From NCBI GenBank assembly GCA_022821235.1, contig JAJEEA010000236.1, positions 1 to 57,580 of the forward strand: DNA of 57,580 nucleotides. The letters run 5' to 3'. This stretch comes from Vicinamibacteria bacterium. GTDB taxonomy: Bacteria; Acidobacteriota; Vicinamibacteria; Vicinamibacterales; UBA8438. Below the pieces are notes generated by a model, which was not told the DNA's origin, did no database searches, and saw only the letters and a list, made by a program, of their open reading frames with translations. The position numbers were made by a program, and so were the translations under genes. Numbering within the stretch: position 1 is the stretch's first letter; the number at the start of each line of letters is the position of its first letter. Below, in pieces: positions 34,341 to 49,501 of the stretch.

Positions 34341-34544
34341 ATGCCCCAAGAGCCGCCGAACAATCGCCGCATCGACTGGACGGGTGTTCAGCCCGACGAC
34401 TCACCCATCGAGCCTCTCGATGGCCGAACCTTCCTGCTCCGCCTGCGGCGGCTCGAAGCGCACGCGCGCGACCTGACGATCCTGCGCCGGGCCCTCATGC
34501 AACGCCAAGCTCATGACCGACGGGTTTCTCCAGATTCTGAATGA
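34341..34544 (+). CDS. Small hypothetical protein overlapping the nucleotidyltransferase gene
   Basis: 67 aa ORF in a TA-like two-gene arrangement; no recognisable motif. Confidence 0.5.
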   Translation: MPQEPPNNRRIDWTGVQPDDSPIEPLDGRTFLLRLRRLEAHARDLTILRRALMQRQAHDRRVSPDSE

Positions 34545-36035: not shown

Positions 36036-37286
36036 TCAGAACAGATCGCTGAGCTCGTTCTCGCCCCCAGAGCCATCGACCCTCGGTTCAGCCGCACGGG
36101 CCGATGAGTCGTCCACGCCCCGCTGTATGGTCATCTGTTTCCGGCGCTCCAGATCGCGGAACCGATCCATGAACAGGGCGTCTTCCCCGTCGGTGGTACT
36201 GACGTACAGCCACCGCGTCGCTCGCGTGATGCCGACGAACAGCCAGCGTTCGAGCCGGTCGGAATCGGTCTTCCCCAGCAACTTGCGATTCAAGCGCGGC
36301 ATCAGAACCGTGTCGAAAGTCAAGCCCTTGGAGCTCGGGTATGGCATGAGCTTGGGCAAGGGTGTGCCAAAGTCGACGGGCGGGACCGGGTCGTCCTTCC
36401 TGCGCGCCGACTCGTTGATCTCCACCTCGAGCCCGGCTTCGCTCAGCGCGCGAGCGTAGCTGCGGGTGCGGTACTTGTCCGGAAACAGGATGGCGATGCG
36501 TTCGTTCCGATCGATCCGGGTGCGGACCACTTCAATCAAGTGCGAGCGTTCGTCCTCGGCGTCCCTCGCGAGGTACAGCAGGGGCAACTGACGCTCACCC
36601 CTTTCGACCGGCGGATTCTGCTCGATGAATCGCCTCCGTTCCACGTCGTCGCGGACGAACGAAGCGCCTGCCTGCACGATGTACGGCGAGCAACGGTACG
36701 CGTCGAGCAGCGCGAGGTTGCGCCGACGCAGCCCGAGCGCCCTCGCGACGCCCGTCTCGTCGGCGTCCCGGTCGTAGAGCTTCTGCTTCGGGTCCATGAA
36801 GACCGTCACGTGCTGCGCAACGGCCGCCAGCGTCTCGAAGTCGCGTCGGTCCAGATCCTGGCCCTCGTCAACCATCACGAAGTCGAACAGACGCTCGGAG
36901 GTCTTCAAGTGGCGCGTCTTCTCCCACACCGCCTGTCGGATCGCCTCCCAGTCACGGCTGCGGCCACTCCAGGGCATTCGCTTGTCGACCTGATCCCTGT
37001 AGTACTCGCCGCACCAGGCGTCGAAGGTCACTACGCAGTCCTCCGGAAGTGCAAGGTCGCGTAGCGCTGCCCGGATGTAGGCCTTGAGCGCGTTCGTGTA
37101 GACGAACAGGCGGCAACGGTCCGGCGGAATCCCGTACTGGTCGAGCAGATGGCGCGCCCGATGCAGCAGAACGATGGTCTTGCCGGAGCCGGGAGAGCCC
37201 AGCACCAACCGATGCTGCTTTGGATTCGCTTCGACCGCCCGGCTCTGTGCAACGGTCAGTTCACTGCGGGGAACGAGCCAACTCAC
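36036..37286 (-). CDS. Short superfamily 1 (UvrD-like) helicase/ATPase
   Basis: GSPGSGKT, VDEGQD, DPKQKLY, YRCS, SSKGLTFD, LFVGITRA; GTGA overlap with the Hsp70 stop. Confidence 0.9.
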   Translation of the reverse strand: MSWLVPRSELTVAQSRAVEANPKQHRLVLGSPGSGKTIVLLHRARHLLDQYGIPPDRCRLFVYTNALKAYIRAALRDLALPEDCVVTFDAWCGEYYRDQVDKRMPWSGRSRDWEAIRQAVWEKTRHLKTSERLFDFVMVDEGQDLDRRDFETLAAVAQHVTVFMDPKQKLYDRDADETGVARALGLRRRNLALLDAYRCSPYIVQAGASFVRDDVERRRFIEQNPPVERGERQLPLLYLARDAEDERSHLIEVVRTRIDRNERIAILFPDKYRTRSYARALSEAGLEVEINESARRKDDPVPPVDFGTPLPKLMPYPSSKGLTFDTVLMPRLNRKLLGKTDSDRLERWLFVGITRATRWLYVSTTDGEDALFMDRFRDLERRKQMTIQRGVDDSSARAAEPRVDGSGGENELSDLF

Positions 37287-39703
37287 CGCGGCCTCCTTAT
37301 GATCTCGTTCCGGGTCTCCGGCAGCACGCCGTCACCCGTCGTCGGTTCCTGGGCCCGCCCCCGCCGCGTGCGCTCCTCGTCGGCGGCCTGTTCCCGTCGG
37401 CTGTCCCGAGCCAGCCGGGCACCGAAGCGGTACCAGTGCAGTTCGAAGTCATCCAGAGTCGCCACAGGATCGAACGCGTCGAACGCCTGCTCCAGGAGGG
37501 CATCGCATTCAATGGTCGACTTCTCCAGTTTCGCGACCACCCGCGCCTTCAGAATGAGGCTCGGTGGATTCGACTCGCGTGCGATCGCCGCCTCGACGGT
37601 CTCCATCGCCGCCTTCAATCGGCCCTGACGCTCCTGCGCCAGGGCGAGGTTGAACAGCGGGCCGTTCCACGCCGACGGAATTGCCGCCGCCTCGCGGTAG
37701 AACTTCTCCTCCCGCTCGTGGTCGCCCAGTCTGCCGGCGATGATGCCCATACGGTTGAGAATCCCGGCGTTCGGCGATGTCCTGATCAGACTGCTCAGCA
37801 GACTCAGGGCCCGCTCGCAGTGCCCCAGCTCCGCTTCCAGCTCGGCGATCCTCTCCACCGTCTTGCGCTGCTCCGCCTTCGACACGACTCCCGTGCGCAT
37901 CCTTTCCTGCAGCTCGAGTATCTCGTCGCGCTTGGCATTCGGGTTCACGACGCTGGTGAGAGGATTCTCAACGGTGAGTTGGAACTCCTCCTCGGCGTCG
38001 TCGCCGCCGTCCGGGCGTGCAAGACGCAGGTGCAGTACCTGGTTGACGTCCATCCGATAGCGCAGCCGCAGTGGATCGCCCTTGGCGACACCCCTGCGAA
38101 TCGTCCAGATCCCGGACATCAGGACACGGTCGTCGGCGTTCGACAATGCAACCCGCAGGTTCACGTCGTCCACGAGACTCGTCTCGGGAGCCACCAGCCG
38201 GTCGTTTTCGGCCCAGTCTCCGTCCGGGGGATACGGAAGCTCGGTGCCGTCACCGATCAACTCGACAGGTCCCGTCGCGGTCTGGATGTTGATGCTGTCC
38301 CCAGTGACCGGCCGAACGAGTCCCTGCCCGCGAACGGCCAACGAGAACGCCTGCCATGCGGCTCCGTGCGCTACCGCGGTCTGCGTACGCTCCGAGTCGT
38401 CGAAAGACAGGGTTCGGGCCTCGGAGAAGAAGTCGTCGACAGCCTCGACAATCTGCGGGATCAGGGCGCTCCCGCCGACCAGCAGGCAGAAATCGACGTC
38501 GCCCGACTCCAGGTTGGCCCGGCCGAGCGCATCCTGAAGCGGCGCGAACACCGAGCACGTCATGAGGTAGTCGGTCTCGCGGGGGTAGAGCAGATCGCGG
38601 TCCAGAAACGGCTCGACCACCCTGTGGAACTCGACCGCGCTCAGCGTCGGCGATTGGAGGCGCAAGGCCGTTCCGTCGCGCAGGGTGCAAGGATAGACGC
38701 CCGGATTCTTCTGGCCGAGCTTGGTGCGCTCTTCCTCGTAGCGGCCGAACTTCTTGAGACGGGCGATCTCCCGGCAGAGCCCGATCTTCAAGGATTCCGC
38801 ACAACCGAGCAGCGCCGGAATCACTCGCTCGAACTTGGCGCGGTAGTCCAGATCGTGGGGCTGCAAGCCGTTCTGCTCGATGAGTTGCGGAATCAGGACC
38901 CCCGTGACTATCGCGCGATCGATGTCGCCGCCACCGAGGCGGTGGTAGCGGGAGACCGAGCGCGGCGCCACCTCGATACCGGCCGACGCGCCGGGTCTCG
39001 GCGGGCGAAGCTCGAAGACGGCGACGTCACACGTTCCCCCGCCGAAGTCGAACACCACGAGACGGCGGCGCTCGGACAGGCCCGCGAACGTCTCCGTGCC
39101 GTGCGTGAACACGTAGTCGATGAAGGCAGCGATGGGCTCATCCAGAAGGGCGCCGGGCGCCAGCTCAATACCGGCGAGCCCCGCAGCCTCGAGCGTGTCG
39201 TGCCGTTGAGACGCCTGAAACGAAGCCGGCACCGTCACCACCGTCGCGGCTTCGGGCTGCCCGTCGTCGCCCGACGCGGAGTCCATGAGGAACTTCAGCA
39301 CATGCCCCGCGAGCTCCTTGGCGGATCGAAACCCGGCCGGGGCCTTGTGATAGGTCCGGCGAACGCCGATGTCGTTCTTGCAGTCCCAGAAGATGTTGCG
39401 GTACTGCTCCAGACCGAGATCTCCGAGGCGTGCGCGCAGGTCCTTGGCTCCGGCACCCACGTAGACCTGCCCGTCGTGGAGGGCCAGAACCGACGGGACG
39501 AGCGTGTGGAACTGTGGTCCCTGTCGTGTGGGCTGCTCGACGTCGAGACAGCGCACTTCGGGCGTACCGCCGCTCTCCAGCGCGACGACAATCTCGGCCA
39601 CCGTCGAATTGGTCGTTCCCAGGTCGATGCCGATCACCCGCAGGGGTCGCCGTGACGCCGGAACCTGGCTGTCGGCCGCGGTGGCAAGTGCAGTGAAGCT
39701 CAT
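37283..39703 (-). CDS. Hsp70-family ATPase with C-terminal TPR-like repeats
   Basis: GIDLGTTNS, VTVPASF, VFDFGGGTCDV, LGGGDID, LLVGGS, AVAHGAA; C-terminal ILNRMGIIAGRLGD..FYREA and LFNLALAQERQGRL..A TPR-like helices. Confidence 0.88.
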   Translation of the reverse strand: MSFTALATAADSQVPASRRPLRVIGIDLGTTNSTVAEIVVALESGGTPEVRCLDVEQPTRQGPQFHTLVPSVLALHDGQVYVGAGAKDLRARLGDLGLEQYRNIFWDCKNDIGVRRTYHKAPAGFRSAKELAGHVLKFLMDSASGDDGQPEAATVVTVPASFQASQRHDTLEAAGLAGIELAPGALLDEPIAAFIDYVFTHGTETFAGLSERRRLVVFDFGGGTCDVAVFELRPPRPGASAGIEVAPRSVSRYHRLGGGDIDRAIVTGVLIPQLIEQNGLQPHDLDYRAKFERVIPALLGCAESLKIGLCREIARLKKFGRYEEERTKLGQKNPGVYPCTLRDGTALRLQSPTLSAVEFHRVVEPFLDRDLLYPRETDYLMTCSVFAPLQDALGRANLESGDVDFCLLVGGSALIPQIVEAVDDFFSEARTLSFDDSERTQTAVAHGAAWQAFSLAVRGQGLVRPVTGDSINIQTATGPVELIGDGTELPYPPDGDWAENDRLVAPETSLVDDVNLRVALSNADDRVLMSGIWTIRRGVAKGDPLRLRYRMDVNQVLHLRLARPDGGDDAEEEFQLTVENPLTSVVNPNAKRDEILELQERMRTGVVSKAEQRKTVERIAELEAELGHCERALSLLSSLIRTSPNAGILNRMGIIAGRLGDHEREEKFYREAAAIPSAWNGPLFNLALAQERQGRLKAAMETVEAAIARESNPPSLILKARVVAKLEKSTIECDALLEQAFDAFDPVATLDDFELHWYRFGARLARDSRREQAADEERTRRGRAQEPTTGDGVLPETRNEIIRRPR

Positions 39704-39882
39704 GAATTCCGTTCCTCGCAGTCCCCGCCGGCGCTCCCGGTGACACCCCACGCCGCCGAGCATCATCACGGCGCTGGCAAATCGCTATTCCGCCGGCGAC
39801 ATCACTCCATGCGGCTGGCTGCCACCGTGGACGCAGTACCCGCGGCGCGCGCCAGCAACGCGGTCTCGACAACCGCAGAGAC

Positions 39883-42800
39883 TCAGCCCTCTGGCTCCAC
39901 TCCCATCCAGCAGACCAACTCGACGTCCTCCTGCGAGATCGGCGGCAGAGGGGAAGCCGGTTCGACTGGTTCGAGCCCAGTCTCCAGGATTCTGTCGATC
40001 AGGAAGCGGGCCAAGTCCTTTCCGCGGTGCTCGTCGGAATCGAACCATCCTCGGAGCATGATCTCCTCCCGTCGCGGCCAAGGCGACTCCAGCACGTCGA
40101 GCGCTCGAGTGATTCGGTCGTCTGGAACGTCCACCGGGGAGTTCGTACGGATGAACTCGGCGACGCGGTGGTTGAGCGGCCGGACCTTCGGCTGCAGATT
40201 CGCCGGGTCAGTCTGGCGGACCCAATCGTCCAGGATGTCCTGCTGGGCCACCGCCCAGAAGTCGTACACCCCGTCCTGAAGAACGGCCGACAGCCACGGC
40301 TCGGTTTCCTCCGTGCATTCGATCAGGCGCAGGCACGTACCGATCTCGCGAACGACGGCACCCTCGTCGGTCCGCGGTCGCCAGTCGTCGTCCGCAGCCA
40401 CGAAACGCAGGTACGTCCGTTCGAGATCGGTCTCGTGCCCAATCACCGCGCAGAAGAAGACGCCACGGCGGGCACCCTTGACCATGCCGGTCCCCACCTT
40501 CCACGGGAGACCGGCGATGTGCTCGCCGTTGCCTGCCAGCGCCTTTCGGAGCGTTTGCCGGTACTCTTCCCCGGTCTGGGCCGCGGCGGCCGTGCCGCCG
40601 CGCTGGTAGAGAGCCGGATCCTCGCGGAGCAGCTTCTCGATTTCGTGACGCGTCTCGGTGAACACCTGCTTGCCGTGGGAGGAGCCCTCGATGGGCGCGA
40701 CGACGCCGACGCTGGCCGCCGCCAGGGCGAGCTTGTCGAGGATGCGCTGTTCGAGGTTCAGAAGCTGGTCGAGGCGGTCGACCGGGAAGATCGTCCGCAG
40801 GAACACACGCTTGTGGGGGCTCCCGATGCGGTCGATGCGGCCGTGCCGCTGGACCAGACGCATCGGATTCCACGGCACGTCGAAGTTGATGATGTGCCGG
40901 CACTGTTGCAGGTTGACGCCTTCGGCCAACACGTCGGTGGAGATCAGGAGGTCGTAGCGGTCGGTCGCCTGACCTTCCGGCGCCTCCATGGACACCGGTG
41001 CAAAGCCTTGAACTGCCTCGTTCCGGGACACGTCGGAGAGGTCGTCCTGACCGCTCACGGCAGCAATTCGGTTCGCATAGGCCGCGATGTCGGCACGGCC
41101 CTCCAGTTCCGTCGCGAGGAAATCGCGGACCCAGCGAACCGTATCGGCGAAGAACGAGAAGACGAGCACCTTCCGCCGCTGGGCCTCGTCGACGCTGTCG
41201 GTCGCTTCACGCGTCGCCTGCTGGACAATCTCCGCCAGTGCTTCGATCAAGGCCGCCAGCTTGGGATCCCGGTCGGGCGTGATGGAGGCCGCGTCCTCCG
41301 ACAGCATCCGAAGCGTGTCTCCGTCCCGACGCACCGCTGCACGCAAGCCCTCCACGTCGTAGGCCGAGGCATCTCTGAGGTTCGAGCTCGTCGTGAGCAG
41401 GGTTTCGAAGACCGCATCGTCGTCGCCCGACAGCTCCTGCATGAACGCCGTGGTCGCCACGTGGCCGCGATCCAGCGCGTCGAGGAAGACATCGTGCTCG
41501 CGGACCATCTTCTCCGTCGTGCGCCTGAATGCGAAGGCCGACGACTCGAAGCGCTTCAGCAAGCCCGATCGCAGGAGCCCCACAGTCGCCCGTGCTCGCG
41601 CGACCTCCTCCTCGTCCCCGCCGCCCCGCAGATAGGCGTCCGGCGTGTACCTCGCAAACTCCACGGCCTCGTCGCCGTCCGGATCGAGCGCGGCCTCGAG
41701 CCGATCGAAGAAGCCAGGCAGCGACTCGTCCAGGTCGTAGCGGACACTGATGGCCCTCGGGTGCGGAAACACGATGGGCCGCGCGATGCCGTCCGGCCCC
41801 CTGATGGTGTCGTTCGCGTAGTGCTTCCGCACGAACTCCCGCGTCCGCTTCACCGTCGTGGCGTCGATGACCGGGTACAGCACGTCCGGGCTCAGGCTGG
41901 AGGGGTCCTCCCGCATGGCCTCTTCGAAACGGGCGCGGAGCGAGAGAATGCCCCGTTCGGCGAGATGAGCGTCCTGGCGCAGGAAGAAGCGGATCAGATG
42001 GTAGAGGTCCCACAGCGAGTTGTTGACCGGCGTCGCGGTCAACAGCAGCAGATCCCGCCGCCGGCCGAACATCAGCGCCCGCAGGGCCGCCGCCCGCGTC
42101 GGGGCATCGGGATTCCGGTAGTTGTGGGCCTCGTCGACGATCACGAGCTGATACTCGTCGAGCGGACGTTGCAGGTACTGCTGCCGCGCCTCGGGCCGCT
42201 GCGCGTCCCGAAGCTGCCTGTCGCTCGCCAGCTGCTCGAACGACAGACACTCGACGAACAATTGATAGGTGCTCAGGAATTTCTTCCAGGTGGTGTCCCG
42301 CAGCGCCGCCGGGCAGATCAGCAGGGCCCGCTGTCGTCGCTCCCGGTAGATCTGGAGGATCTCGCCCGCGACGAAGGTCTTCCCCAGGCCGACCTCGTCG
42401 GCAACGATGCATCCCCCCGTCTCCCGAATCAGCCTGAGCGCGCGGGCCACTCCGTGCTTCTGAAAGCTGGTGAGCGGCAGGTTGTCGTCGACCGCCTCGT
42501 CGTCGGCTACCTCCTTGCCATACAGGCGCCAGAGCACGTGGATGAAGATCTCCCAGGGCCGCCGAAGCCGAAAGACCACCTCGAAGACGTCCGCCAAGTC
42601 GTAGGGCTCGGCCTGCTCCCAGAGCTCGTCGAACCACGCCCGCGCCCGCTCGACGATGGGCCGGTCGTAGCGGCCGAGGTCGAGCTCCAGGTTATCGCTC
42701 AGGCCCGCCGCCGTCAGGTTCGCGGAACCCGCGATGACGCCCGCCGGCGCACCGAAGGCATCGCCCGCGGATGTCAGGATGTACGCCTTGGCGTGCAGGA

Positions 42801-43239
42801 ACGCCCGCTCGTAGCGCCGCACCTCCATGTTGCCGCCGCGAAGCGCCGCTATGAGCGTACGCAGCGCCGTCGCGCTCGTCCGAGTGTACGGCAGCCGGTC
42901 GCGCTCCCGACGCAGCCCGTCGTCCATTCGACGCAATCGCCCGCCAAGTCGCCGCCGTTCGAATGCCCCAGCCGGCTCGCCAAGCGCCCGCCGGCTCGCA
43001 AGCTCATCCGACGGGCGGTCCGCCCCCAGCAGCAGTCGGACCTCCGGTACCCGTGAAAGCGCGCCGGCAATCTGAGCGAAGCCGCTCGGGCTGAAGAACG
43101 CCGTGGCAATGCGGACGCGGTCGGGCGGCGCGGTACCCTCGCCCGTCCGATCCGACTGAGGGGCGGCCAGCACCGTGCGCAGCGCTCGCGCCAGTGTATT
43201 CCCGTCACGGTTGTCGATGAACGCGGGTCCGTCACTCAC
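39883..43239 (-). CDS. PLD-nuclease + SNF2-family helicase fusion
   Basis: RIATAFF, FLHAKAY...GSANLT; ADEVGLGKT, DEAH, LTATPVNN, EGVNLQ, PWNPMRLVQRHGRIDR; GTGA overlap with the DUF4411 stop. Confidence 0.9.
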   Translation of the reverse strand: MSDGPAFIDNRDGNTLARALRTVLAAPQSDRTGEGTAPPDRVRIATAFFSPSGFAQIAGALSRVPEVRLLLGADRPSDELASRRALGEPAGAFERRRLGGRLRRMDDGLRRERDRLPYTRTSATALRTLIAALRGGNMEVRRYERAFLHAKAYILTSAGDAFGAPAGVIAGSANLTAAGLSDNLELDLGRYDRPIVERARAWFDELWEQAEPYDLADVFEVVFRLRRPWEIFIHVLWRLYGKEVADDEAVDDNLPLTSFQKHGVARALRLIRETGGCIVADEVGLGKTFVAGEILQIYRERRQRALLICPAALRDTTWKKFLSTYQLFVECLSFEQLASDRQLRDAQRPEARQQYLQRPLDEYQLVIVDEAHNYRNPDAPTRAAALRALMFGRRRDLLLLTATPVNNSLWDLYHLIRFFLRQDAHLAERGILSLRARFEEAMREDPSSLSPDVLYPVIDATTVKRTREFVRKHYANDTIRGPDGIARPIVFPHPRAISVRYDLDESLPGFFDRLEAALDPDGDEAVEFARYTPDAYLRGGGDEEEVARARATVGLLRSGLLKRFESSAFAFRRTTEKMVREHDVFLDALDRGHVATTAFMQELSGDDDAVFETLLTTSSNLRDASAYDVEGLRAAVRRDGDTLRMLSEDAASITPDRDPKLAALIEALAEIVQQATREATDSVDEAQRRKVLVFSFFADTVRWVRDFLATELEGRADIAAYANRIAAVSGQDDLSDVSRNEAVQGFAPVSMEAPEGQATDRYDLLISTDVLAEGVNLQQCRHIINFDVPWNPMRLVQRHGRIDRIGSPHKRVFLRTIFPVDRLDQLLNLEQRILDKLALAAASVGVVAPIEGSSHGKQVFTETRHEIEKLLREDPALYQRGGTAAAAQTGEEYRQTLRKALAGNGEHIAGLPWKVGTGMVKGARRGVFFCAVIGHETDLERTYLRFVAADDDWRPRTDEGAVVREIGTCLRLIECTEETEPWLSAVLQDGVYDFWAVAQQDILDDWVRQTDPANLQPKVRPLNHRVAEFIRTNSPVDVPDDRITRALDVLESPWPRREEIMLRGWFDSDEHRGKDLARFLIDRILETGLEPVEPASPLPPISQEDVELVCWMGVEPEG

Positions 43240-43730
43240 GAGGGCGCTCCGAGCACGAACCGCGCGTGCTCCCGCCGCAGCATTTCGAACGGCGTCACGC
43301 ACTTGATTCCGATACCGATGCAGACGTTGGGAATCTTGATTCTCCGTGTCGAGGACGAGGCAACCTCGTGCGTGACGACGTCGTACCCGCGCGCGAGGGC
43401 ATGCGCGACCAAGTAGTAGTCGGCAACTTGAAGGAACGTGCTGACCGCAGCCGGCTCGTACTGCTGGCTGGTCACCCAGCGGCTGACGGTGCCGAGCGCG
43501 GCCAACACATCAGGCGTCGGTCGGAGGAAGAAGTCACCACCGCGCTCCGCCGCCCACGTCGCCAGCTCGTCGTCACCCGCCGCGAGCTCATCACCCACCT
43601 TCTCGATGCTGACCGCCCGGCCGTCCGCAGCGGCCGCCACCAGCCAGTCCCAGAATGCCGGGCAGAAGTCGAATCCGTAGTGCAGGTTCTTAGCGCGGAT
43701 GAACACGTCCGCGTCGAGCAGATACGCCAT
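43236..43730 (-). CDS. DUF4411-family PIN-domain protein
   Basis: YLLDADVFIRAKNLHYGFDFCPAFWDWL...ADYYLVAHA...VVTHE...KIPNVC. Confidence 0.88.
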   Translation of the reverse strand: MAYLLDADVFIRAKNLHYGFDFCPAFWDWLVAAAADGRAVSIEKVGDELAAGDDELATWAAERGGDFFLRPTPDVLAALGTVSRWVTSQQYEPAAVSTFLQVADYYLVAHALARGYDVVTHEVASSSTRRIKIPNVCIGIGIKCVTPFEMLRREHARFVLGAPS

Positions 43731-43734
43731 CAGG

Positions 43735-44883
43735 TCAGCGCCCCGCACTCAGGGTCTCTGCAAATTCCCGGAACGTCGACATCTTGCGGATCCCGAGTAG
43801 CCGCAGAGACTCGGAGAACGACGTTCGGCCCTCCAGCGTGCTCGTCACCACCGCGTGTCCGAACCGGCGCCCTACACGAACCCTGAGCGTAGGATGGAAG
43901 CTGCCGCCACTGGGCGCCGGGCGGGCGTTCAAGCGTCCAACCTCGTCCCGGTACGCGACGCGGAACTCCTCGTAGCCGAGCCTACCGGTGTCCCTGAGCC
44001 GGCGCAGCACGACGAGGGTGCTCACCTTGAAGCGCCGGGCCAGCCGCTGCGTTTCCGAGAACACGTCCGCGGACGCGTCGTGTGCCGCTCGGACCACTTG
44101 ACCCGGGACGAGGAGCTCCGCCGCCACGCGGTTGCACCAGCCTTCCACCCGATGCCCCGGCGTCGGACGTACCCCGACGTCCGACAAGGCTGACTCACCG
44201 AGCCACAGATGTGCGAGCTCGTGCGCCAGCGTGAACATCTGCGCCGCCTTCGTGTCCGCGCCGTTCACGAACACCACAGGGGCCAGCGGGTCCGCGAGCG
44301 CGAAGCCGCGAAACTCCTCCGGATCGAGCCGCCGTCTGGTGCTGTTCCCAACTATGCCGCTAATCATGACGAGCACGCCGAGCGCTTCGGCCTGCTCCCC
44401 AAACCGGCGCAGCGCGGCGCTCCACGTGGGCAGCGTGTGGCGCTCCTCGAGGTCGAAGCCCAGGGCCCGGCGCATGTGCGTCGCCGTCGCCTCGATGTCG
44501 CTCGCGACGCCAGCGGACCCCACGAACCGCCGCGGGCCTTCCCCCTCCACGCGCGCGAACTCGCGGTACCAGTCCTGGCGCTGCTGGCAGAGATAGACGG
44601 TATCGAGCATCTCGGGGCTCGGGCGCCCGATCGCGGAATCTCCCACGGTTCGGAAATCGGGAATCGGGACTTCTTCGATCGGCGCCTCGGGCAGAAAAAA
44701 GTAGCCCACCGGCGCCCGGCTGGTCCTCGCGAAGGCCTCTAGCTGCTTTAGCGTAGGTCGCGCCGTTCCCCGCTCCCACTCGAGGTACTTCGGAAAGAGG
44801 CGCACCAGCACGGCCAAGTCCAGCCGGGCGCGTTCGCGCGCCCAGCGGAACAGTTCCGGTTTCACGTCCACGCGCGGCGTCAT
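43735..44883 (-). CDS. XRE-HTH + ImmA/IrrE-family metallopeptidase
   Basis: N-terminal HTH (WERGTARPTLKQL), FRGFAL, FTLAHELAH (HExxH), EGWCNRVAAELLVP; ATGA overlap with the MTase stop. Confidence 0.9.
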   Translation of the reverse strand: MTPRVDVKPELFRWARERARLDLAVLVRLFPKYLEWERGTARPTLKQLEAFARTSRAPVGYFFLPEAPIEEVPIPDFRTVGDSAIGRPSPEMLDTVYLCQQRQDWYREFARVEGEGPRRFVGSAGVASDIEATATHMRRALGFDLEERHTLPTWSAALRRFGEQAEALGVLVMISGIVGNSTRRRLDPEEFRGFALADPLAPVVFVNGADTKAAQMFTLAHELAHLWLGESALSDVGVRPTPGHRVEGWCNRVAAELLVPGQVVRAAHDASADVFSETQRLARRFKVSTLVVLRRLRDTGRLGYEEFRVAYRDEVGRLNARPAPSGGSFHPTLRVRVGRRFGHAVVTSTLEGRTSFSESLRLLGIRKMSTFREFAETLSAGR

Positions 44884-47800
44884 CCGCGCTTCCTCCACGA
44901 CCGGAAGTGCCCGAGGACAGCGTCGAGACGATCCCCGAAATCCCAACCTTCATGGAAGGTCTCGAAGACGTGGACGAGTTGAGCCTCGGTCATGCCGTAG
45001 AGGTGGGCCACGACCGCGTCGAGCTCGTGAATCATGTCGTTCTTCTCGTCCGCCTCGAGTGGCCCACTCTGCACCCCGACCGCGTCGGCCCAGGACCGGA
45101 AGCGTTCGTCGGGGCAGGCCAGCCGCCCCGAAAGAACGACCACGCGCCGCCACCGATTGTCTTCCCGCGGGGGACGGGGGATAGGGAATGGGTTGAAGAC
45201 GAAGTAGTTCACGTGCGATTCGACGAACCGTCGCGCGTACCAATCGAGCGGGATTGAGGAAAGGACACCGATGACGAAGGCCTGGTCGCGCTGGTCTCCT
45301 CGTGGCCAGAGGAGGTAAGGCGCCTGATTGCCGATGAGCACTTCGGGCGGCACGAGCGCCACCCGCACAGTTCGCGAGTCTGTAGCCCTCGATACGTCCC
45401 GAAAGGCCACGCGCGGCGCAAAACAGGGCAACGTCGAGCGGTCGCGCAGGTAACCGGCCTTGAACTCCCGGTGCGGGCTGTCGCCGCGCCGTTTCCCCGC
45501 CCGCAGGCGTTTGGCCTGGACCCACGCGAGAGCCGGTTGCGGATCGGCCCAGGCGTAGTAAGTGCCGGTGTCCGGGGTCCAGAGGTCGAACGACTCGCCC
45601 TTGTAGACCGGCCAGAAGCCATCCGGGCACGCCTCGCTTTCGAGGTCCATGAGGTGTTTCTGCAGTGAAGCATCGAGCTCGCGATCTGGTCGGGCGCGCC
45701 ACTGCGGCGGCGCGTTCAGGTCGAGTCGCGGCGCCTTGCGAAGCTGCAGGAAGACGTCTACCGAATCGTGATGCGGTAACAGAGGCAGGGACGCACTGTC
45801 GTTCCAGGTCCGCACTTCGTTCCCGAAGAAGCTCACCGGTTCGCGCACGACGTTGGCGTGGAACTGCGCCCGGTCCGCGTACGGCCCGCGGAGCCGCAGC
45901 TGTGAAGACTCACGGCCCCCGGCGCGGCGGACGACCGCAACCAGTCCGATCGTGTAGCGATGCTCCGCCTCGTCGAACACCCAGCCGGCCCGATTGAGCA
46001 GCATCGTCAGATCGAGGTCGGCCAAACCGCCGAACATTGTCAGCCGAAAATCGGTGGACCCCTTCGCCGCGAGCGCGCTGCGGGGCAGCACCACTCCGAT
46101 GCGCCCTCCGTGTGAGGCCGCCAGTCGCCAGAACCGCCAGCAGAATGCCTTGTAGAGGTCGGGATCACCGGTCCCCATGCCGGGGTACTCGCCGCCGACG
46201 AGGGCGCGGCGCATGCGCTCGACTTCGGACGCCTCGTCCTCGTACAGCGCGACTAGGTCCGGCCGTTCCCGACGGAGTCGAGCCTTCTCCGCCTCCTGGG
46301 CGCGCTGCGGTTGTGACCGCAGACCAGGGAAGTGCCGGGCCCAGAACGCATGTTCCTCCAGGGTGGCCTCCTGCCACGGGGGATTCCCCAGGATGACATC
46401 GAACCCCGGCCGGTCACCCAGGAAGACCTCCGGGAACGCAACGGGAAAATGGAGCGCATGTAATCCATCGAGCGCTCGCCTCGCACTGTCCACGGTCGCG
46501 CCGAAGCCCCCGTCCTCGAGACCGGGATCCCACTTCCCCAGATCCTCTTTTGTGATCGGGCCCGCGTCGTCCGCGATCGGCTGCGCCGCGATCAAGTCGC
46601 ACAGCGTTGCGGTCGAGCGGATGGCGAGGCTCGCGTCCCGACGAGCGATTCGGGCCTTGCTGATGTCGCCCAGCGTGGCGTCGTTGAGGTTGGCCAGTCT
46701 CCTTAGCGGCGCAGCCGCGCGCCCGAGCAGGCTGCCCGCATCGAGCGGGAACAACGGCAGAGCATCCAGGTCTTCGAACTTCTTCCGGATCTCCTCGATC
46801 GTGCCCACCCCGACGAGGGAGTTGCCGCGAACCAGGTTGTGGTCCAGGAACGACAGCGGCAGGCCGGGCACGAAGGTGTGGATCCACACCGCCAGCCGCG
46901 CGAGCTGCACCGAGAGACCGTTCAGGTCGACCCCATAGATGCAGCGCCGGGCAATCAGACGGCGCAGTAGCGGCCCGTCCTCGATCGTCGTGCTCGTCGC
47001 GAGCTCTCCCAGCGCTCCCTGCGCGGCTTCGCGCAGGGCGTCAAGCTCCCGCCGAACGCCCGGCAGGCTCCGGGCGGCCAGGGCGTCGGCCATGCGTTTC
47101 TCGATCCGGTCGATGGCGGCGATCAGGAAATGGCCCGATCCCATGGCGATGTCCGCCACCCGGAAGTCGAAGAACCCGTCCGCCGCGTCGGCCTCGTCCA
47201 TCGACCGGAGGCGCGCGAAATGGTCATCCAGCGCGGGTTCCAGCGCGCCGTCGAGCAGGTGCTCCACGGCGAACGACTTCGTGTAGTAGCTGCCCGACGA
47301 CTTCCGCGCTCCGGAACGGTTGTGGAGATACGTCTCCCCGGCAGCGACCGCGACAACGTCCCGGCGGCGAGCGGGACGGTAGACTCCCTTCTTGTCGAGC
47401 GTCAGATCGGTCTCGGCGACACCGAGCTCCGATTCGAGCAGGCCCTCGTAGATGGTGCCGAACTCGCGCACGCCCAGGGAGCGGAAATCGACCGGGCCGG
47501 GAACGCCCTCCGCGGTGTCGATGACCAGAAGGTGCCGCAGCGCCTCCTCGAACGACTCGTTCGGCATCGTGATCGCCGCGATCGCCGCCCCACTTGCCGA
47601 CACGTTGGCGTCGGCGGTGAACAGCCCGCCATCGTACGCGGGGACGCCCCATTCCGTGTTGCCGGTGGCGACCGCCCGGCACAGGACGTCGAATTCCCGC
47701 CAGTGGGAATCTCCCGCGGCGATCGGGGTCTCCTGCATGACGCAGTCGGCGAGCTCCTGCGCCTTCTGCTTCAGGGATCGGCGGCGATAGGCGTCGTTGT

Positions 47801-48923
47801 GCCGGTACGGGAGCAGGTCGCGGTCTTCGGCATATGCAATGAAGAGCAGCCGGAACAGGACGATGAGAGCCATCTCATACGTCTGGGCCAGGCTGTCACG
47901 GCCGCCGCCGTCAGCTCGGCGTGCGTCGGAGATCCCGTGCGCCAAGGCCGGGACGACTTGTTCGTAGATGCGCTCCCGGAGACGGTCGGCCAGGTCTCCC
48001 GCGAAGCGCCGCGACTGGTCGAGGACCTCCCGGAGGCTTCCGTCCGGAGCCAGCGCATCGGCCGAGAAGAGCAGCCAGAGATACGGCAGGTGGTCGTCGG
48101 ACAGGAGCGCGGGCTGGCATTCGACGTACGTCTCGGTCCGACCGCGACGGCCTACGCCGGTCTCGACGGCGGTCGCGTAGAGACGAAGGCGGTCTCCCTG
48201 CACCAGAACCACCCACGGCAGGTCTTCGTCGTCGGCCTTCTTGAGGCCGTAGCTGATCGGCGACAAACCGTTGAACCGTTGCGTTCCCGCTTCCGGCGAT
48301 TCCGTGTCGCGGAGCAGGACCGCCAGAGCGGTACGGCGGTCCGCCCTGCGCAGCAGGCTCGTGAGATTGTCGAGACGTTCGATCCTGAAGCCGAGCGCAC
48401 TCAGGAGATCACGGTCACGATTGCCAAGCACTCGCGTCGCCTTGCGCCTCGCTTCGGTCCAGTCCGTACGCGCCGGCACGCCGTGCTGCAACTCGTGCAA
48501 CGCCAGCAGTCCCTCGTTGTTCAGGCCGGGGAGAGCCGTTTCGAGAGATGGCAGAGCCTGCGACAGGAAGCGAAGCGCCGCGTGCCGATCCGGCTGTGCG
48601 AGCGTCTCCCGACAGAGTCGCTCGACCTGCCCCGGGTCGACCTTCGGATGGACCGGCGGCGTTTCGCCGGCCGGCCCGCAGAGGGCGGCGCCGTCCGGAT
48701 GCAGCACCACGAGCAGCACGGGAGCCGCGCGCCCACCTTTGCGGGTCTTCCAGCACTCCAACACGTCGGACCGCCTGGGTGCGCGCCCTGACCGGGCCAC
48801 GGCAACCTCGAGACCGTGCGCCCCTTGTCCGACGAACAAGCGCGGCGAGCCGAGACCGTAGCGGGCTGGCGGCAACCACCGTCGCGGCGGAAGATCGGAG
48901 AGGAACTGTGCGTCGTCTGCCAT
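44880..48923 (-). CDS. Type IIG/Eco57I-like N6-adenine DNA methyltransferase with C-terminal target-recognition region
   Basis: RLLFIAYAEDR, YDGGLF, GTIYEGLL, RKSSGSYYT, DIAMGSGHFL (motif I), IYGVDLN, GNPPW (motif IV), DLYKAF. Confidence 0.9.
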   Translation of the reverse strand: MADDAQFLSDLPPRRWLPPARYGLGSPRLFVGQGAHGLEVAVARSGRAPRRSDVLECWKTRKGGRAAPVLLVVLHPDGAALCGPAGETPPVHPKVDPGQVERLCRETLAQPDRHAALRFLSQALPSLETALPGLNNEGLLALHELQHGVPARTDWTEARRKATRVLGNRDRDLLSALGFRIERLDNLTSLLRRADRRTALAVLLRDTESPEAGTQRFNGLSPISYGLKKADDEDLPWVVLVQGDRLRLYATAVETGVGRRGRTETYVECQPALLSDDHLPYLWLLFSADALAPDGSLREVLDQSRRFAGDLADRLRERIYEQVVPALAHGISDARRADGGGRDSLAQTYEMALIVLFRLLFIAYAEDRDLLPYRHNDAYRRRSLKQKAQELADCVMQETPIAAGDSHWREFDVLCRAVATGNTEWGVPAYDGGLFTADANVSASGAAIAAITMPNESFEEALRHLLVIDTAEGVPGPVDFRSLGVREFGTIYEGLLESELGVAETDLTLDKKGVYRPARRRDVVAVAAGETYLHNRSGARKSSGSYYTKSFAVEHLLDGALEPALDDHFARLRSMDEADAADGFFDFRVADIAMGSGHFLIAAIDRIEKRMADALAARSLPGVRRELDALREAAQGALGELATSTTIEDGPLLRRLIARRCIYGVDLNGLSVQLARLAVWIHTFVPGLPLSFLDHNLVRGNSLVGVGTIEEIRKKFEDLDALPLFPLDAGSLLGRAAAPLRRLANLNDATLGDISKARIARRDASLAIRSTATLCDLIAAQPIADDAGPITKEDLGKWDPGLEDGGFGATVDSARRALDGLHALHFPVAFPEVFLGDRPGFDVILGNPPWQEATLEEHAFWARHFPGLRSQPQRAQEAEKARLRRERPDLVALYEDEASEVERMRRALVGGEYPGMGTGDPDLYKAFCWRFWRLAASHGGRIGVVLPRSALAAKGSTDFRLTMFGGLADLDLTMLLNRAGWVFDEAEHRYTIGLVAVVRRAGGRESSQLRLRGPYADRAQFHANVVREPVSFFGNEVRTWNDSASLPLLPHHDSVDVFLQLRKAPRLDLNAPPQWRARPDRELDASLQKHLMDLESEACPDGFWPVYKGESFDLWTPDTGTYYAWADPQPALAWVQAKRLRAGKRRGDSPHREFKAGYLRDRSTLPCFAPRVAFRDVSRATDSRTVRVALVPPEVLIGNQAPYLLWPRGDQRDQAFVIGVLSSIPLDWYARRFVESHVNYFVFNPFPIPRPPREDNRWRRVVVLSGRLACPDERFRSWADAVGVQSGPLEADEKNDMIHELDAVVAHLYGMTEAQLVHVFETFHEGWDFGDRLDAVLGHFRSWRKRG

Positions 48924-49160: not shown

Positions 49161-49490
49161 TCAGCCTGGAAGCGGCGCGGCCGACGGTTCGGTCGACGGC
49201 GGATCGACGTGGACAGTCACCCGGATTCGGCCGTCGAGCGCGGCGAGGATCTTCATCAGTCGATCCAGCGTGAACCGACCGAGGCTCGCGTTCCGGATGC
49301 GTGAGAAGTCCGCTACGGAGAACCCGGTGGCCTCTGCGGCCTTGCGGACCGGGAGCTTGCGCTCATCCAACACGACGATGATTCGGGCGGCGATGATTGC
49401 CTTGGCCTGCCTCAAATCTGCTTGAGGGTCGCCGAAATCGCGGAACACGTTGCCGCTCCCCTCGACGAGCTCGAGCTCGCTCTCGCTCAT
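49161..49490 (-). CDS. XRE-family HTH protein (HigA2-like antitoxin), no adjacent toxin
   Basis: VEGSGNVFRDFG...ADFSRIRNASLGRFTLDRLMKIL. Confidence 0.85.
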   Translation of the reverse strand: MSESELELVEGSGNVFRDFGDPQADLRQAKAIIAARIIVVLDERKLPVRKAAEATGFSVADFSRIRNASLGRFTLDRLMKILAALDGRIRVTVHVDPPSTEPSAAPLPG

Positions 49491-49501
49491 TGGCGTGAAA
49501 T

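What the first reader, a model, noticed from the sequence alone, without database searches (positions are those of the whole stretch)
36036..48923. Six-gene co-oriented candidate defence system: IIG-like MTase, ImmA/IrrE, DUF4411 PIN, PLD-SNF2, Hsp70-TPR, SF1 helicase
Seen: six minus-strand genes over 12.9 kb; junctions are ATGA overlap, 4 bp, GTGA overlap, 179 bp, GTGA overlap. Established: adenine MTase, PLD nuclease and SNF2 helicase are components of DISARM and other R-M-like systems, but DrmA/DrmB (DUF1998) and BREX PglZ/BrxC are not recognisable here. Inference: a layered anti-phage locus combining methylation-based restriction, a protease-gated PIN effector and a chaperone-like sensor with a helicase. 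I do not know a named system with this composition; it may also be two adjacent systems split at the 179-bp gap.
Basis: partly seen in the sequence, partly recalled or inferred. Interest (0 to 1): 0.78.

Follow-up and report, generated by a model that had tools for sequence, protein, structure and literature searches.

The report
Restriction-like pair plus two add-on modules
Six neighbouring genes in a sponge-associated bacterium are best read as three separable anti-virus modules, namely a widespread but unnamed DNA-methylase/helicase-nuclease pair, a protease-RNase cassette nested inside it, and an uncharacterised Hsp70-like/helicase pair, and not as one six-part machine.

Summary
Comparative data split them into modules.

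(1) A large Type IIG-like N6-adenine methyltransferase (MT) and an HKD(PLD)-SNF2 helicase-nuclease form a conserved pair. MT homology lies directly upstream in 76 of 80 related loci from about ten phyla, and on archaeal and actinobacterial plasmids where it is annotated "hypothetical protein". No other flanking gene is conserved.

(2) The ImmA/IrrE-DUF4411 PIN cassette sits between these two genes in 36 of 80 loci and co-diverges with them. Other cargo can take the same slot.

(3) Hsp70-TPR and a UvrD-like helicase form an autonomous pair, adjacent in 61 of 68 loci. Only 1 of 80 loci of the MT/HKD-SNF2 family carries it. Yet in 21 of 43 metagenomic loci it follows other, distantly related MTase/SNF2/DUF499 systems, often with operon-like spacing.

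The locus lacks the DrmA/DrmB genes of DISARM and the DUF499/DUF3780 genes of MANTIS. All functions are inferred; nothing has been tested experimentally.

The parts
44880..48923 (-). MT: 1347-aa Type IIG-like N6-adenine DNA methyltransferase. Domain order: DHHA1/C-Ala-like domain (about 19-118), PD-(D/E)xK-fold domain (about 167-302), HsdM/PglX/MmeI-type helical domain (about 310-540), gamma-class MTase (motif I D591-x3-G595-x-G597, NPPW 847-850), conserved C-terminal region.
   Evidence: Pfam Eco57I 1.9e-11. PADLOC REase_MTase_IIG PDLC03620, 1017 bits, end to end. AlphaFold model of residues 1-556: pLDDT 86.9. VIA-align hits: 8c45_A PglX Z 9.2; 3h1t_A HsdR nuclease fragment Z 8.2; 3s1s_A BpuSI Z 6.2; 5hr4_J MmeI Z 7.9. 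Motifs read.
43735..44883 (-). ImmA/IrrE-type protein: N-terminal HTH fused to an M78 (DUF955) zinc peptidase, with an invariant HEXXH motif (H221-E222-H225).
   Evidence: Pfam Peptidase_M78 5.8e-17. PADLOC RmrA 6.5e-14 and capP 7e-12. HEXXH is at least 95% conserved in 30 sequences. The HTH assignment comes from reading the sequence and from PMC5499597.
43236..43730 (-). DUF4411 PIN-like nuclease, the predicted toxin/effector. Conserved acidic residues: D6, E48, D104, E122.
   Evidence: Pfam DUF4411 7e-54, full length. Conservation in 27 sequences.
39883..43239 (-). HKD(PLD)-SNF2 helicase-nuclease. Single HKD motif (H149-x-K151 ... G171-S-x-N174). SNF2 motifs I (GLGKT 284-288), II (DEAH 369-372) and VI (QRHGR 797-801). 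Conserved C-terminal region of about 270 aa.
   Evidence: Pfam PLDc_2, SNF2-rel_dom, Helicase_C. Invariant columns in 15 sequences. PDB profile search: RapA 2.6e-17; SauUSI 7clg matches the PLD part at 5.6e-6. PADLOC C3a139 'HKD+Snf2' 170 bits, DrmD 139 bits.
39704..39882 (.). 179-bp spacer, the boundary between the restriction-like operon and the Hsp70-TPR/UvrD-like module.
   Evidence: Coordinates. In relative L001, homology to the window stops at window 39745 and an IS21 element follows. The consensus scan found no promoter or terminator here.
37283..39703 (-). Hsp70-TPR: Hsp70-type nucleotide-binding domain (about 21-458) with conserved ATPase motifs, an SBD-beta-like sandwich (about 471-586), and a TPR array (about 590-783) in place of the helical lid.
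   Evidence: Pfam HSP70 2.6e-28 plus TPR. No PADLOC hit. Invariant DLGTTNS 27-33, DEP 188-190, DFGGGT 219-224, GGS 410-412. Model pLDDT 74.1. VIA-align: 6gfa_A Z 28.7; 5e84_A BiP Z 28.4 over 17-579; 1w3b_A TPR Z 16.6 over 589-782.
36036..37286 (-). Compact UvrD/PcrA-like SF1 helicase of 416 aa. Walker A is G33-S-G-K36, motif II is D140-E-G-Q-D144, and R355 lies in motif VI. Its start overlaps the Hsp70-TPR stop (GTGA).
   Evidence: Pfam UvrD-helicase 2.2e-15 and UvrD_C. PADLOC C3a187 72 bits, weak GajB. Invariant columns in 26 sequences. PDB profile search: PcrA 2.1e-24.

Best explanation
The 12.9-kb stretch is a composite defence island made of three separable modules.

(A) A two-gene, ATP-dependent restriction-modification-like system.
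- MT recognises DNA and N6-methylates adenine on host DNA.
- The HKD-SNF2 partner is the effector: an SNF2 translocase carrying a single HKD nuclease motif. Like BfiI, SauUSI and MtsD, it would have to dimerise to form one active site that cuts unmethylated invading DNA.
- The PD-(D/E)xK-fold domain inside MT has no recognisable catalytic triad. I take it to be degenerate or regulatory.

(B) An HTH-M78 peptidase (ImmA/IrrE, CapH-CapP-fusion-like) plus a DUF4411 PIN nuclease, nested between the two genes of A. I read it as a stress- or infection-triggered back-up. The peptidase removes its own or another HTH repressor/antitoxin and frees or induces the PIN RNase.

(C) An autonomous Hsp70-TPR + UvrD-like helicase pair. 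It is a candidate defence module with no nuclease of its own. An ATP-driven Hsp70-like clamp with a TPR platform is proposed to sense a protein or nucleoprotein cue and to act with the helicase.

Shown here: gene structure, domains, conserved catalytic motifs, and the linkage patterns. Inferred: every activity and every trigger.
For: Module A.
- The search for related loci confirmed 215 of 255 pattern matches among species genomes and kept the best 80.
- MT homology lies directly upstream, on the same strand, in 76 of 80 loci. It is full length in 66. In 35 loci MT abuts HKD-SNF2 with a gap of 206 bp or less.
- No further flanking ORF family occurs in more than 5 of 80 loci.
- MT and HKD-SNF2 pairwise distances correlate: r = 0.93, n = 43, 0 of 999 permutations as high.
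- The pair also lies on Halorubrum lacusprofundi pHLAC01 and Rhodococcus erythropolis pCRE138. MT there is 44-47% identical end to end and is annotated 'hypothetical protein'.
- The catalytic motifs of MTase, HKD and SNF2 are invariant.

Module B.
- ImmA and/or PIN lie between MT and HKD-SNF2 in 36 of 80 loci. These include decayed remnants in L012, L040, L046 and L061.
- Presence maps on the HKD-SNF2 tree with 9 changes, against a shuffled mean of 26.4; 0 of 500 shuffles were as low.
- Distances correlate with HKD-SNF2: r = 0.86 for ImmA and 0.79 for PIN.
- HEXXH and the four PIN acidic residues are conserved.
- Other cargo takes the same slot: an HNH protein, an SDH-type protease, or ImmA plus a 2005-aa NACHT NTPase.

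Module C.
- A UvrD-like gene directly follows Hsp70-TPR in 61 of 68 metagenomic loci that have at least 1.3 kb downstream, and in 8 of 9 acidobacterial genomes, one of them only partially.
- The ATPase and helicase motifs are invariant.
- The fold is Hsp70 NBD + SBD-beta + TPR.
- 32 of 143 otherwise unlabelled neighbours hit PADLOC defence models at E <= 1e-12.

Separability of C from A.
- Only L005 of 80 loci has C downstream.
- The 94%-identical relative L001, at the same chromosomal site, has an IS21 element there instead.
- In the sample of 401 genomes only the window's genome has both modules.
Against: - No experiment and no expression data exist for this locus.
- MT has the full Type IIG layout, including a nuclease-fold domain, and matches a PADLOC Type IIG model end to end. 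It might cut DNA itself.
- MT shows no hypervariable target-recognition region: 40-aa windows score 0.44-0.85, with dips only at 761-840 and 1001-1040. That is unusual for a specificity subunit.
- Module C is not simply random cargo. In 21 of 43 loci with at least 3 kb upstream it follows co-oriented MTase/SNF2/DUF499 genes. Of the 27 such loci in all, 9 have a projected gap of 50 bp or less.
- In related sponge-metagenome contigs the Hsp70 gene stays joined to HKD-SNF2: X5 record 28 (12,442 bp) and X4 record 16.
- The 80 loci in each set are the best-scoring ones and are related to each other, so the counts are not independent.
- ORFs in loci were called crudely, as longest non-overlapping ORFs.
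Confidence: 0.7

Rival explanations
1. All six genes form one integrated, layered system, as the reader first proposed. Hsp70-TPR/UvrD-like would be obligatory parts of the MT/HKD-SNF2 machine.
For: - The six genes are co-oriented and tightly spaced.
- The same order recurs in L005, with Hsp70 42% and UvrD-like 43% identical.
- In related sponge-metagenome contigs the Hsp70 gene remains joined to HKD-SNF2.
- In some searches the close HKD-SNF2 and Hsp70-TPR relatives have longest contigs of equal length (117,312; 16,534; 14,462 bp). This is a hint that they share contigs, not a proof.
Against: - 79 of 80 HKD-SNF2 loci lack Hsp70-TPR/UvrD-like downstream.
- L001, at 94% identity, has IS21 there.
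- None of the 15 other genomes in the phylum sample that carry either module has both.
- Hsp70-TPR/UvrD-like stands without any MTase/SNF2 neighbour in 22 of 43 metagenomic loci, and in 7 of 8 acidobacterial loci where only L182 has an SNF2-like gene nearby.
Confidence: 0.07
2. MT is a self-sufficient Type IIG/IIL restriction-modification enzyme that cuts with its own PD-(D/E)xK domain. HKD-SNF2 is an auxiliary or independent effector, for example a second nuclease or a SauUSI-like enzyme.
For: - PADLOC REase_MTase_IIG matches end to end at 1017 bits.
- The model shows a nuclease fold at 167-302 (3h1t_A Z 8.2, rmsd 3.3, 101 aligned; BpuSI 3s1s_A Z 6.2). It is followed by an MmeI/DrdV-type helical connector (5hr4_J Z 7.9; 7lo5_A Z 6.9).
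- The ESM Atlas lists a look-alike cluster in which 22% of members carry MmeI_N.
Against: - There is no invariant Lys and no D...(D/E)xK pattern among the conserved columns of 167-302 in 38 sequences. The invariant residues are D185, R247, Y249 and E268.
- Pfam finds no MmeI_N. MmeI_hel is found weakly in 9 of 38 members, best E 0.045.
- The strict pairing and co-divergence with HKD-SNF2 (76 of 80 loci; r = 0.93) argue for an obligate partner.
- A Z of 6-8 is in the range that the tool warns can reflect only a common fold.
Confidence: 0.18
3. Hsp70-TPR/UvrD-like is a dedicated accessory of methylation-based, SNF2/DUF499-driven restriction systems. It could be a guard that senses their inhibition, or a remodeller that removes stalled motors. 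It would not be a free-standing system.
For: - 21 of 43 loci with at least 3 kb upstream carry co-oriented MTase/SNF2/DUF499 genes.
- The partners belong to at least four unrelated sets:
  - family-b PLD-SNF2 + Eco57I-type MTase;
  - PLD-SNF2 + Type ISP-like MTase;
  - DUF1156 + DUF499;
  - SNF2 + MTase.
- Of the 27 such loci in all, 9 have a projected gap of 50 bp or less and 14 have 250 bp or less.
- The pair encodes no nuclease or other obvious effector.
Against: - About half of the loci have no such neighbour.
- In acidobacterial genomes only 1 of 8 has one.
- The neighbours also include many unrelated defence genes: Druantia, Mokosh, Lamassu, CARF, AbiE, Dnd, DRT. General defence-island clustering explains part of the signal.
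- I made no control count for other island genes.
Confidence: 0.22
4. The ImmA-like protein is mainly a DNA-damage-responsive transcription switch for the operon, like a CapH-CapP fusion, and not the antitoxin or gate of the PIN protein.
For: - PADLOC capP hit at 7e-12.
- In L020, L042 and L053 ImmA is present without a detectable PIN. In L039 and L043 it precedes a NACHT NTPase instead.
Against: - ImmA and PIN co-diverge: r = 0.84, n = 25.
- They are 4 bp apart in the window.
- HTH-DUF955 + DUF4411 is a recurrent pair outside such operons (PMC5499597, passages read).
- The two roles do not exclude each other.
Confidence: 0.3

Closest known systems
MANTIS / Gao_RL / type 2 BREX-related (BR) system (MtsA-D)
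   Same: An N6-adenine MTase paired with a helicase-nuclease that has an N-terminal HKD domain and an SF2/SNF2 motor. The logic is methylation-based self/non-self discrimination. Sources: bioRxiv 10.64898/2026.09.23.753747 (abstract, Introduction, MtsD section) and PMC12839542 (passages).
   Different: - There is no DUF499 AAA+ ATPase (MtsA) and no DUF3780/DUF3870 protein (MtsB), in the locus or as a conserved neighbour in 80 loci.
- HKD-SNF2 scores only 152 bits against the NCBIfam 'phospholipD_antiphage' model, whose cut-off is 1100.
- MT carries an extra N-terminal nuclease-fold domain.
Class 1 DISARM (DrmD, DrmMI, DrmA, DrmB, DrmC)
   Same: MT hits DrmMI models (220 bits) and HKD-SNF2 hits DrmD models (139-164 bits). 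A PLD nuclease is part of both systems. A vapC-like gene plus a CapH-CapP fusion occurs beside some class 1 DISARM loci.
   Different: - DrmA and DrmB (DUF1998) are missing from the locus. DUF1998 genes of this genome lie on other contigs.
- PLD is fused to the SNF2 protein and is not a separate DrmC.
- The scores lie far below the NCBIfam cut-offs of 610 and 950.
Type IIG/IIL restriction-modification enzymes (MmeI, BpuSI, DrdV)
   Same: Single-chain order: nuclease-fold domain, helical connector, gamma-class MTase, C-terminal region. PADLOC Type IIG model matches end to end.
   Different: - It is obligatorily paired with an HKD-SNF2 ATPase.
- The catalytic triad of the nuclease-fold domain is not recognisable.
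- It has an extra DHHA1/C-Ala-like N-terminal domain.
- It has no hypervariable TRD.
Type III and Type ISP ATP-dependent restriction enzymes
   Same: A division of labour between an MTase/recognition part and an SF2-motor/nuclease part. Hemimethylation logic is expected. This comparison rests on recalled knowledge.
   Different: The motor here is SNF2-type and the nuclease is HKD, not PD-(D/E)xK. The protein families are different.
Hma / type 1 BR systems with embedded defence genes (HEC candidates)
   Same: A helicase-MTase operon that serves as an insertion slot for other defence genes (PMC11232893, abstract and outline). Here the MT|HKD-SNF2 junction holds variable cargo.
   Different: Hma has an SNF2-PD-(D/E)xK helicase plus DUF499 and DUF1156 proteins. 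None of these is present here.
HTH-DUF955 (ImmA/IrrE) + DUF4411.1 three-component toxin-antitoxin-like modules; CapH/CapP regulators
   Same: The same domain pair and gene order. The HEXXH motif and the PIN acidic residues are conserved (PMC5499597; 10.1101/2022.04.27.489752).
   Different: Here the pair is nested inside a restriction-like operon and co-diverges with it. Neither toxicity nor cleavage has been tested.
CoCoNuT CnuD (Hsp70-like NBD/SBD + HEAT repeats) and Gabija GajB (UvrD-like)
   Same: In CoCoNuT, an Hsp70-like ATPase with helical repeats is linked to helicases and is often encoded beside R-M or BREX systems (PMC11090510, passages). GajB is a UvrD-like helicase used in defence.
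   Different: - There is no McrBC partner.
- The ATPase motifs are intact here, whereas that paper describes the CnuD motifs as degenerate.
- The repeats are TPR, not HEAT.
- The helicase is a compact 416-aa UvrD-like protein, and matches to GajB models are weak.
- There is no GajA-like nuclease.

Membership tests
MANTIS / BR type 2 | DUF499 AAA+ ATPase (MtsA) encoded in the operon | tested here: not met
   Pfam on the six genes and on flanking ORFs finds no DUF499. DUF499 genes of this genome lie on contigs C380 and C461, not on the window's contig. No conserved extra gene in 80 loci.
MANTIS / BR type 2 | Small DUF3780/DUF3870 protein (MtsB) | tested here: not met
   No such Pfam hit among the ORFs scanned. 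No conserved small flanking ORF of 100 aa or more in 80 loci. Smaller ORFs were not examined.
MANTIS / BR type 2 | N6-adenine MTase plus an HKD-SF2 helicase-nuclease with N-terminal HKD | tested here: met
   NPPW and HKD motifs are present.
Class 1 DISARM | DrmA helicase and DrmB (DUF1998) in the locus | tested here: not met
   There is no DUF1998 domain in the locus. The PADLOC DrmA hit (73 bits) covers only the generic helicase C-terminal part of HKD-SNF2. DUF1998 matches are on other contigs.
Class 1 DISARM | DrmD (SNF2), DrmMI (MTase) and DrmC (PLD) at family level | tested here: inconclusive
   The hits are partial and below the curated cut-offs: NCBIfam DrmD 164.5 against 610; PADLOC DrmMI 220 bits over residues 518-856 only.
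Type IIG restriction-modification | One polypeptide with nuclease domain, MTase and specificity region | tested here: met
   PADLOC PDLC03620 covers 33-1348 of 1351. Nuclease-fold domain at 167-302 and MmeI-type connector.
Type IIG restriction-modification | Catalytically competent PD-(D/E)xK motif | tested here: inconclusive
   No invariant Lys and no D...(D/E)xK among the conserved columns of 167-302 in 38 sequences. No residue-level structural superposition was available.
Type IIG restriction-modification | Acts alone, with no obligatory partner ATPase | tested here: not met
   HKD-SNF2 is adjacent in 76 of 80 loci and co-diverges, r = 0.93. This is genomic linkage, not a functional test.
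BREX | PglZ and BrxC | tested here: not met
   No such Pfam or PADLOC hits in the locus. PglX models score 26 bits or less.
HTH-DUF955 + DUF4411 toxin-antitoxin-like module | Adjacent HTH-M78 fusion and DUF4411 PIN with intact HEXXH and acidic quartet | tested here: met
   The gene order is as in PMC5499597.
HTH-DUF955 + DUF4411 toxin-antitoxin-like module | PIN toxicity neutralised by the partner | not testable with these tools
   This needs expression assays.
Hsp70 superfamily | NBD with phosphate-1, phosphate-2 and adenosine motifs, plus SBD-beta | tested here: met
   Invariant motifs. 6gfa_A Z 28.7 (rmsd 3.1, 347 aligned). BiP 5e84_A Z 28.4 over 17-579. The motif names are recalled.
CoCoNuT type III (CnuD) | McrB-like GTPase and McrC/DUF2357 partner genes | tested here: not met
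   No such domains in the window genes scanned or among the annotated neighbours of 80 Hsp70-TPR loci.
Gabija | GajA OLD-family nuclease next to GajB | tested here: not met
   There is no GajA-like gene in the locus. GajB models hit at 52 bits or less.

The most novel reading that the evidence does not exclude
Hsp70-TPR + UvrD-like helicase is a new kind of plug-in immune module. It would be an active Hsp70-type ATPase whose lid is replaced by a TPR platform, working with a minimal SF1 helicase. It would dock onto diverse methylation-based, SNF2/DUF499-driven restriction systems. There it would act as a guard that detects phage inhibition of those systems, or as a remodeller that clears stalled motors from self DNA.

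Separately, MT + HKD-SNF2 would be the minimal two-gene core from which MANTIS-like and DISARM-like systems are elaborated.
Probability: 0.2. Interest if true: 0.8.

Novelty: new variant of a known kind. Interest (0 to 1): 0.58.

Why it matters
1. A two-gene MTase + HKD-SNF2 unit spreads across bacterial phyla and reaches archaeal plasmids at 44-95% identity. NCBI annotation calls it 'hypothetical protein' + 'helicase-related protein'. PADLOC would flag only a Type IIG enzyme. If it works as proposed, it is the simplest member of the MANTIS/DISARM-like group. It would be a tractable model for how a methyltransferase licenses a motor-nuclease.

2. The MT|HKD-SNF2 junction is a cargo slot. It holds a protease-PIN cassette, an HNH protein, a protease or a giant NACHT NTPase. 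This is useful for finding back-up effectors.

3. The Hsp70-TPR/UvrD-like pair has no PADLOC model. No description turned up in my three full-text searches. Yet it sits in defence islands and is often in operon-like contact with restriction-like systems. It is a cheap and clear candidate for phage-challenge tests.

Tried and rejected
- Complex prediction, Hsp70-TPR residues 470-806 against UvrD-like: no verdict, score 0.00. This is neither for nor against binding.
- The look-up of sequencing runs listed no RNA holder, so nothing can be said on expression or co-transcription.
- The promoter/terminator consensus scan of 35.8-49.8 kb gave 0 promoter-like sites and 6 terminator-like sites. Shuffles gave means of 0.8 and 7.0. 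Uninformative.
- No tRNA gene in the window, so no integration site was seen.
- phmmer of MT against PDB gave no hit at E <= 0.01. The profile of its N-terminal 556 aa gave only a chance-level hit. Foldseek against PDB gave no match at E <= 0.001. VIA-align was needed.
- Viral contigs hold one true orthologue each of Hsp70-TPR (L188) and HKD-SNF2 (L268). I found no sign that the modules are phage-borne.
- The HTH_37 gene upstream (49161-49490) was tested as a possible regulator of the system. It is found only in L001 of the 80 loci.
- A third gene for module C was sought. A DprA/PsyrA-like ORF of about 205 aa flanks the pair in 9 loci, but it has no homologue in the window.
- The 592-aa actin-fold ATPase in the L048 cargo slot is not the Hsp70-TPR family (hhalign probability 31%).
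- A literature search for a Halorubrum lacusprofundi methylome that might assign a motif to the MT homologue found nothing usable in the listing.
- The PADLOC names C3a139 and C3a187 trace to a survey of type III CRISPR accessory genes (PMC6546367, search listing only). They say nothing about this system.
- Supplementary files of the BR and MANTIS papers could not be seen. They may list two-gene variants or Hsp70 neighbours.

Full report
**Observation.**
The window is GC-rich (70-75%). It holds a lower-GC island at roughly 32.4-49.7 kb (65-68%). Six minus-strand ORFs with coding-type GC3 (0.82-0.84) fill 36036-48923. With starts chosen by homology they are:
- MT: 44880-48923.
- ImmA: 43735-44883.
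- PIN: 43236-43730.
- HKD-SNF2: 39883-43239.
- Hsp70-TPR: 37283-39703.
- UvrD-like: 36036-37286.

Pfam, PADLOC and NCBIfam confirm every domain call.

**Module A: MT + HKD-SNF2.**
I aligned 15 HKD-SNF2 homologues and scanned one genome per species. 215 of 255 pattern matches were confirmed and the best 80 loci were kept. They come from Acidobacteriota, Alpha- and Gammaproteobacteria, Latescibacterota, Rhodothermota, Gemmatimonadota, Spirochaetota, Bdellovibrionota and a Prochlorococcus, at 49-94% identity.

tblastn with the six window proteins gave these counts:
- MT homology lies directly upstream on the same strand in 76 of 80 loci. The exceptions are L054, L071 and L012, plus L037, which is cut by its contig end.
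- MT is full length in 66 loci.
- In 35 loci MT abuts HKD-SNF2 with a gap of 206 bp or less.

Clustering of all other ORFs of 100 aa or more found no family in more than 5 of 80 loci. The conserved unit is therefore two genes.

MT and HKD-SNF2 distances correlate: r = 0.93, n = 43, 0 of 999 permutations as high. The HKD-SNF2 tree cuts across taxonomy, so the pair moves horizontally.

A tblastn search of plasmids found 7 records with at least 80% coverage. In Halorubrum lacusprofundi pHLAC01 and Rhodococcus erythropolis pCRE138 the 'helicase-related protein' is preceded by a 1345-1375-aa 'hypothetical protein'. That protein is 44-47% identical to MT from end to end, with motif I and NPPW intact.

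**What the two proteins look like.**
HKD-SNF2 has one HKD motif and complete SNF2 motifs, all invariant. Its nearest solved relatives are RapA for the motor and SauUSI for the PLD part.

An AlphaFold model of MT residues 1-556 (pLDDT 86.9, pTM 0.82) divides into three domains:
- A DHHA1/C-Ala-like domain at 19-118 (Z 5-6.5).
- A PD-(D/E)xK-fold domain at 167-302. Hits: HsdR nuclease fragment 3h1t_A, Z 8.2, rmsd 3.3, 101 aligned; Type IIG BpuSI, Z 6.2.
- The helical N-domain of HsdM/PglX/MmeI at 310-540. Hits: PglX 8c45_A, Z 9.2; MmeI, Z 7.9.

MT thus has a Type IIG layout, in line with the end-to-end PADLOC Type IIG hit. The conserved columns of 167-302 contain no invariant Lys and no D...(D/E)xK pattern, so whether this domain cuts DNA is open.

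MT shows no hypervariable specificity region. That is odd for a recognition subunit and I cannot explain it.

I infer a division of labour as in MANTIS. MT marks self DNA and finds unmarked sites. A dimer of HKD-SNF2 translocates and cleaves.

The system is not a member of MANTIS/BR type 2, because it has no DUF499 and no DUF3780/3870. It is not class 1 DISARM, because it has no DrmA or DrmB. It is not BREX.

The literature read for this:
- MANTIS preprint: abstract, Introduction, MtsD section.
- BR-systems paper: passages.
- Hma paper: abstract.

**Module B: ImmA + PIN.**
Traces of ImmA and/or PIN lie between MT and HKD-SNF2 in 36 of 80 loci. There are 21 intact four-gene operons. Three loci have ImmA only. 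Decayed remnants occur in L012, L040, L046 and L061.

Presence needs only 9 changes on the HKD-SNF2 tree, against a shuffled mean of 26.4. ImmA and PIN distances track HKD-SNF2, r = 0.86 and 0.79. The cassette has therefore travelled with the operon and has been lost repeatedly.

HEXXH and the PIN acidic quartet are conserved.

The same slot can hold other cargo:
- an HNH protein (L069);
- an SDH-type protease (L072);
- ImmA plus a 2005-aa NACHT NTPase (L039, L043);
- extra genes (L048).

HTH-DUF955 + DUF4411 was predicted to be a three-component toxin-antitoxin-like system (PMC5499597, passages). A vapC-like gene with a CapH-CapP fusion has been noted beside class 1 DISARM (10.1101/2022.04.27.489752, passages). 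Whether ImmA gates PIN, regulates the operon, or does both was not tested.

**Module C: Hsp70-TPR + UvrD-like.**
Hsp70-TPR has many length-conserved relatives of about 800 aa.
- A UvrD-like gene follows directly in 61 of 68 loci that have at least 1.3 kb downstream.
- It also follows in 8 of 9 genomes of the window's phylum, one of them only partially.

ATPase and helicase motifs are invariant. The model (pLDDT 74.1) is an Hsp70 NBD plus SBD-beta, followed by a TPR array in place of the lid:
- Hsp110 NBD: Z 28.7.
- BiP: Z 28.4 over 17-579.
- TPR array (OGT): Z 16.6.

PADLOC has no model for the protein. Three full-text searches found no description of such a pair. The nearest item is CnuD of CoCoNuT systems.

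The context is defence. 32 of 143 otherwise unlabelled neighbours hit PADLOC models at E <= 1e-12.

**Are A and C one system?**

Evidence against:
- Only L005 of 80 HKD-SNF2 loci has Hsp70-TPR/UvrD-like downstream.
- L001 is 94% identical and lies at the same chromosomal site. It has an IS21 element there.
- In 401 genomes of the phylum, 10 have Hsp70-TPR and 7 have HKD-SNF2. Only the window's genome has both, and none of 7 genomes of the same family has either.

Evidence for some link:
- In 21 of 43 Hsp70-TPR loci with at least 3 kb upstream, co-oriented MTase/SNF2/DUF499 genes precede the pair. These include a PLD-SNF2 family only about 25% identical to the window's, in the order PLD-SNF2, MTase, Hsp70, UvrD.
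- Of the 27 such loci in all, 9 have a projected gap of 50 bp or less.
- In sponge-metagenome contigs about 94% identical to the window, the Hsp70 gene stays joined to HKD-SNF2.

I conclude that C is an autonomous module with a marked, non-obligatory preference for sitting at the 3' end of methylation-based motor-nuclease systems. I did not count a control set of other island genes, so the size of this preference is not calibrated.

**Limits.**
- All functions are inferred.
- Each set of 80 loci is the best-scoring subset and its members are related.
- ORFs in loci were called crudely.
- Z-scores of 6-9 are in the tool's grey zone.
- Complex prediction gave no verdict.
- No RNA data were found.
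- Supplements of the key papers were closed.

**Verdict.**
The pieces are new variants of known kinds. Module C is the least charted and the most worth a bench test.

Noticed in passing
window 25995-26577 (-): BrnT toxin (26290-26577) and BrnA antitoxin (25995-26309) pair, about 6 kb outside the island.
   Followed up: no
window 49161-49714 (-): Two small genes just upstream of MT: HTH_37 (49161-49490) and a weak HicB-like ORF (49502-49714). HTH_37 is kept in L001 (84% identity) but in none of the other 79 loci.
   Followed up: partly
window 32443-34553: This stretch is 91% identical to L001, but its two long ORFs (672 aa on the minus strand, 526 aa on the plus strand) have no Pfam hit. The codon phase of the mismatches (80/57/46) fits neither ORF, so the real gene or element here is unclear.
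   Followed up: partly
L039:3806-9823 and L043:3785-9835: In two Rhodothermales loci the slot between MT/ImmA and HKD-SNF2 holds a NACHT/STAND NTPase of about 2005-2016 aa in place of PIN.
   Followed up: partly
L048:6728-9944: After ImmA-PIN, two more genes are nested before HKD-SNF2: a 483-aa protein with no Pfam hit and a 592-aa actin-fold (MreB-like) ATPase. The latter is unrelated to the window's Hsp70-TPR family.
   Followed up: partly
L083, L086, L090, L092, L110, L117, L130, L140, L150 (for example L110:11576-12205): A DprA-like ORF of about 205 aa flanks the Hsp70-TPR/UvrD-like pair in 9 loci, either just before or just after it. Seven of these hit PADLOC PsyrA. The window has no homologue.
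   Followed up: partly
window 44880-48923 (MT) and homologues: MT is conserved along its whole length, even between bacteria and a haloarchaeon. There is no swapped or hypervariable specificity domain. Only short dips occur at residues 761-840 and 1001-1040.
   Followed up: partly
L001:13476-17955: An IS21 element (IstA-like transposase, and IstB at 4.5e-73) replaces the Hsp70-TPR/UvrD-like segment in the closest relative.
   Followed up: yes
window 36036-46000 and loci L001-L080: The stretch is held by sponge-metagenome runs of several studies. Many related loci have record titles of the kind used for sponge-symbiont MAGs. The system may be common in sponge-associated bacteria.
   Followed up: partly
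window about 38096 (inside Hsp70-TPR): Contigs of three runs (X2, X4, X5) all end or begin at 38096-38099. This hints at a strain-variable or repeated segment in the 3' half of the gene.
   Followed up: no
own genome contigs C161, C231, C308, C323, C380, C461: The genome carries DUF1998 (MZB) and DUF499 genes, and further SNF2-like genes, elsewhere. It therefore probably has DISARM/Druantia/BR-like systems besides this locus.
   Followed up: no
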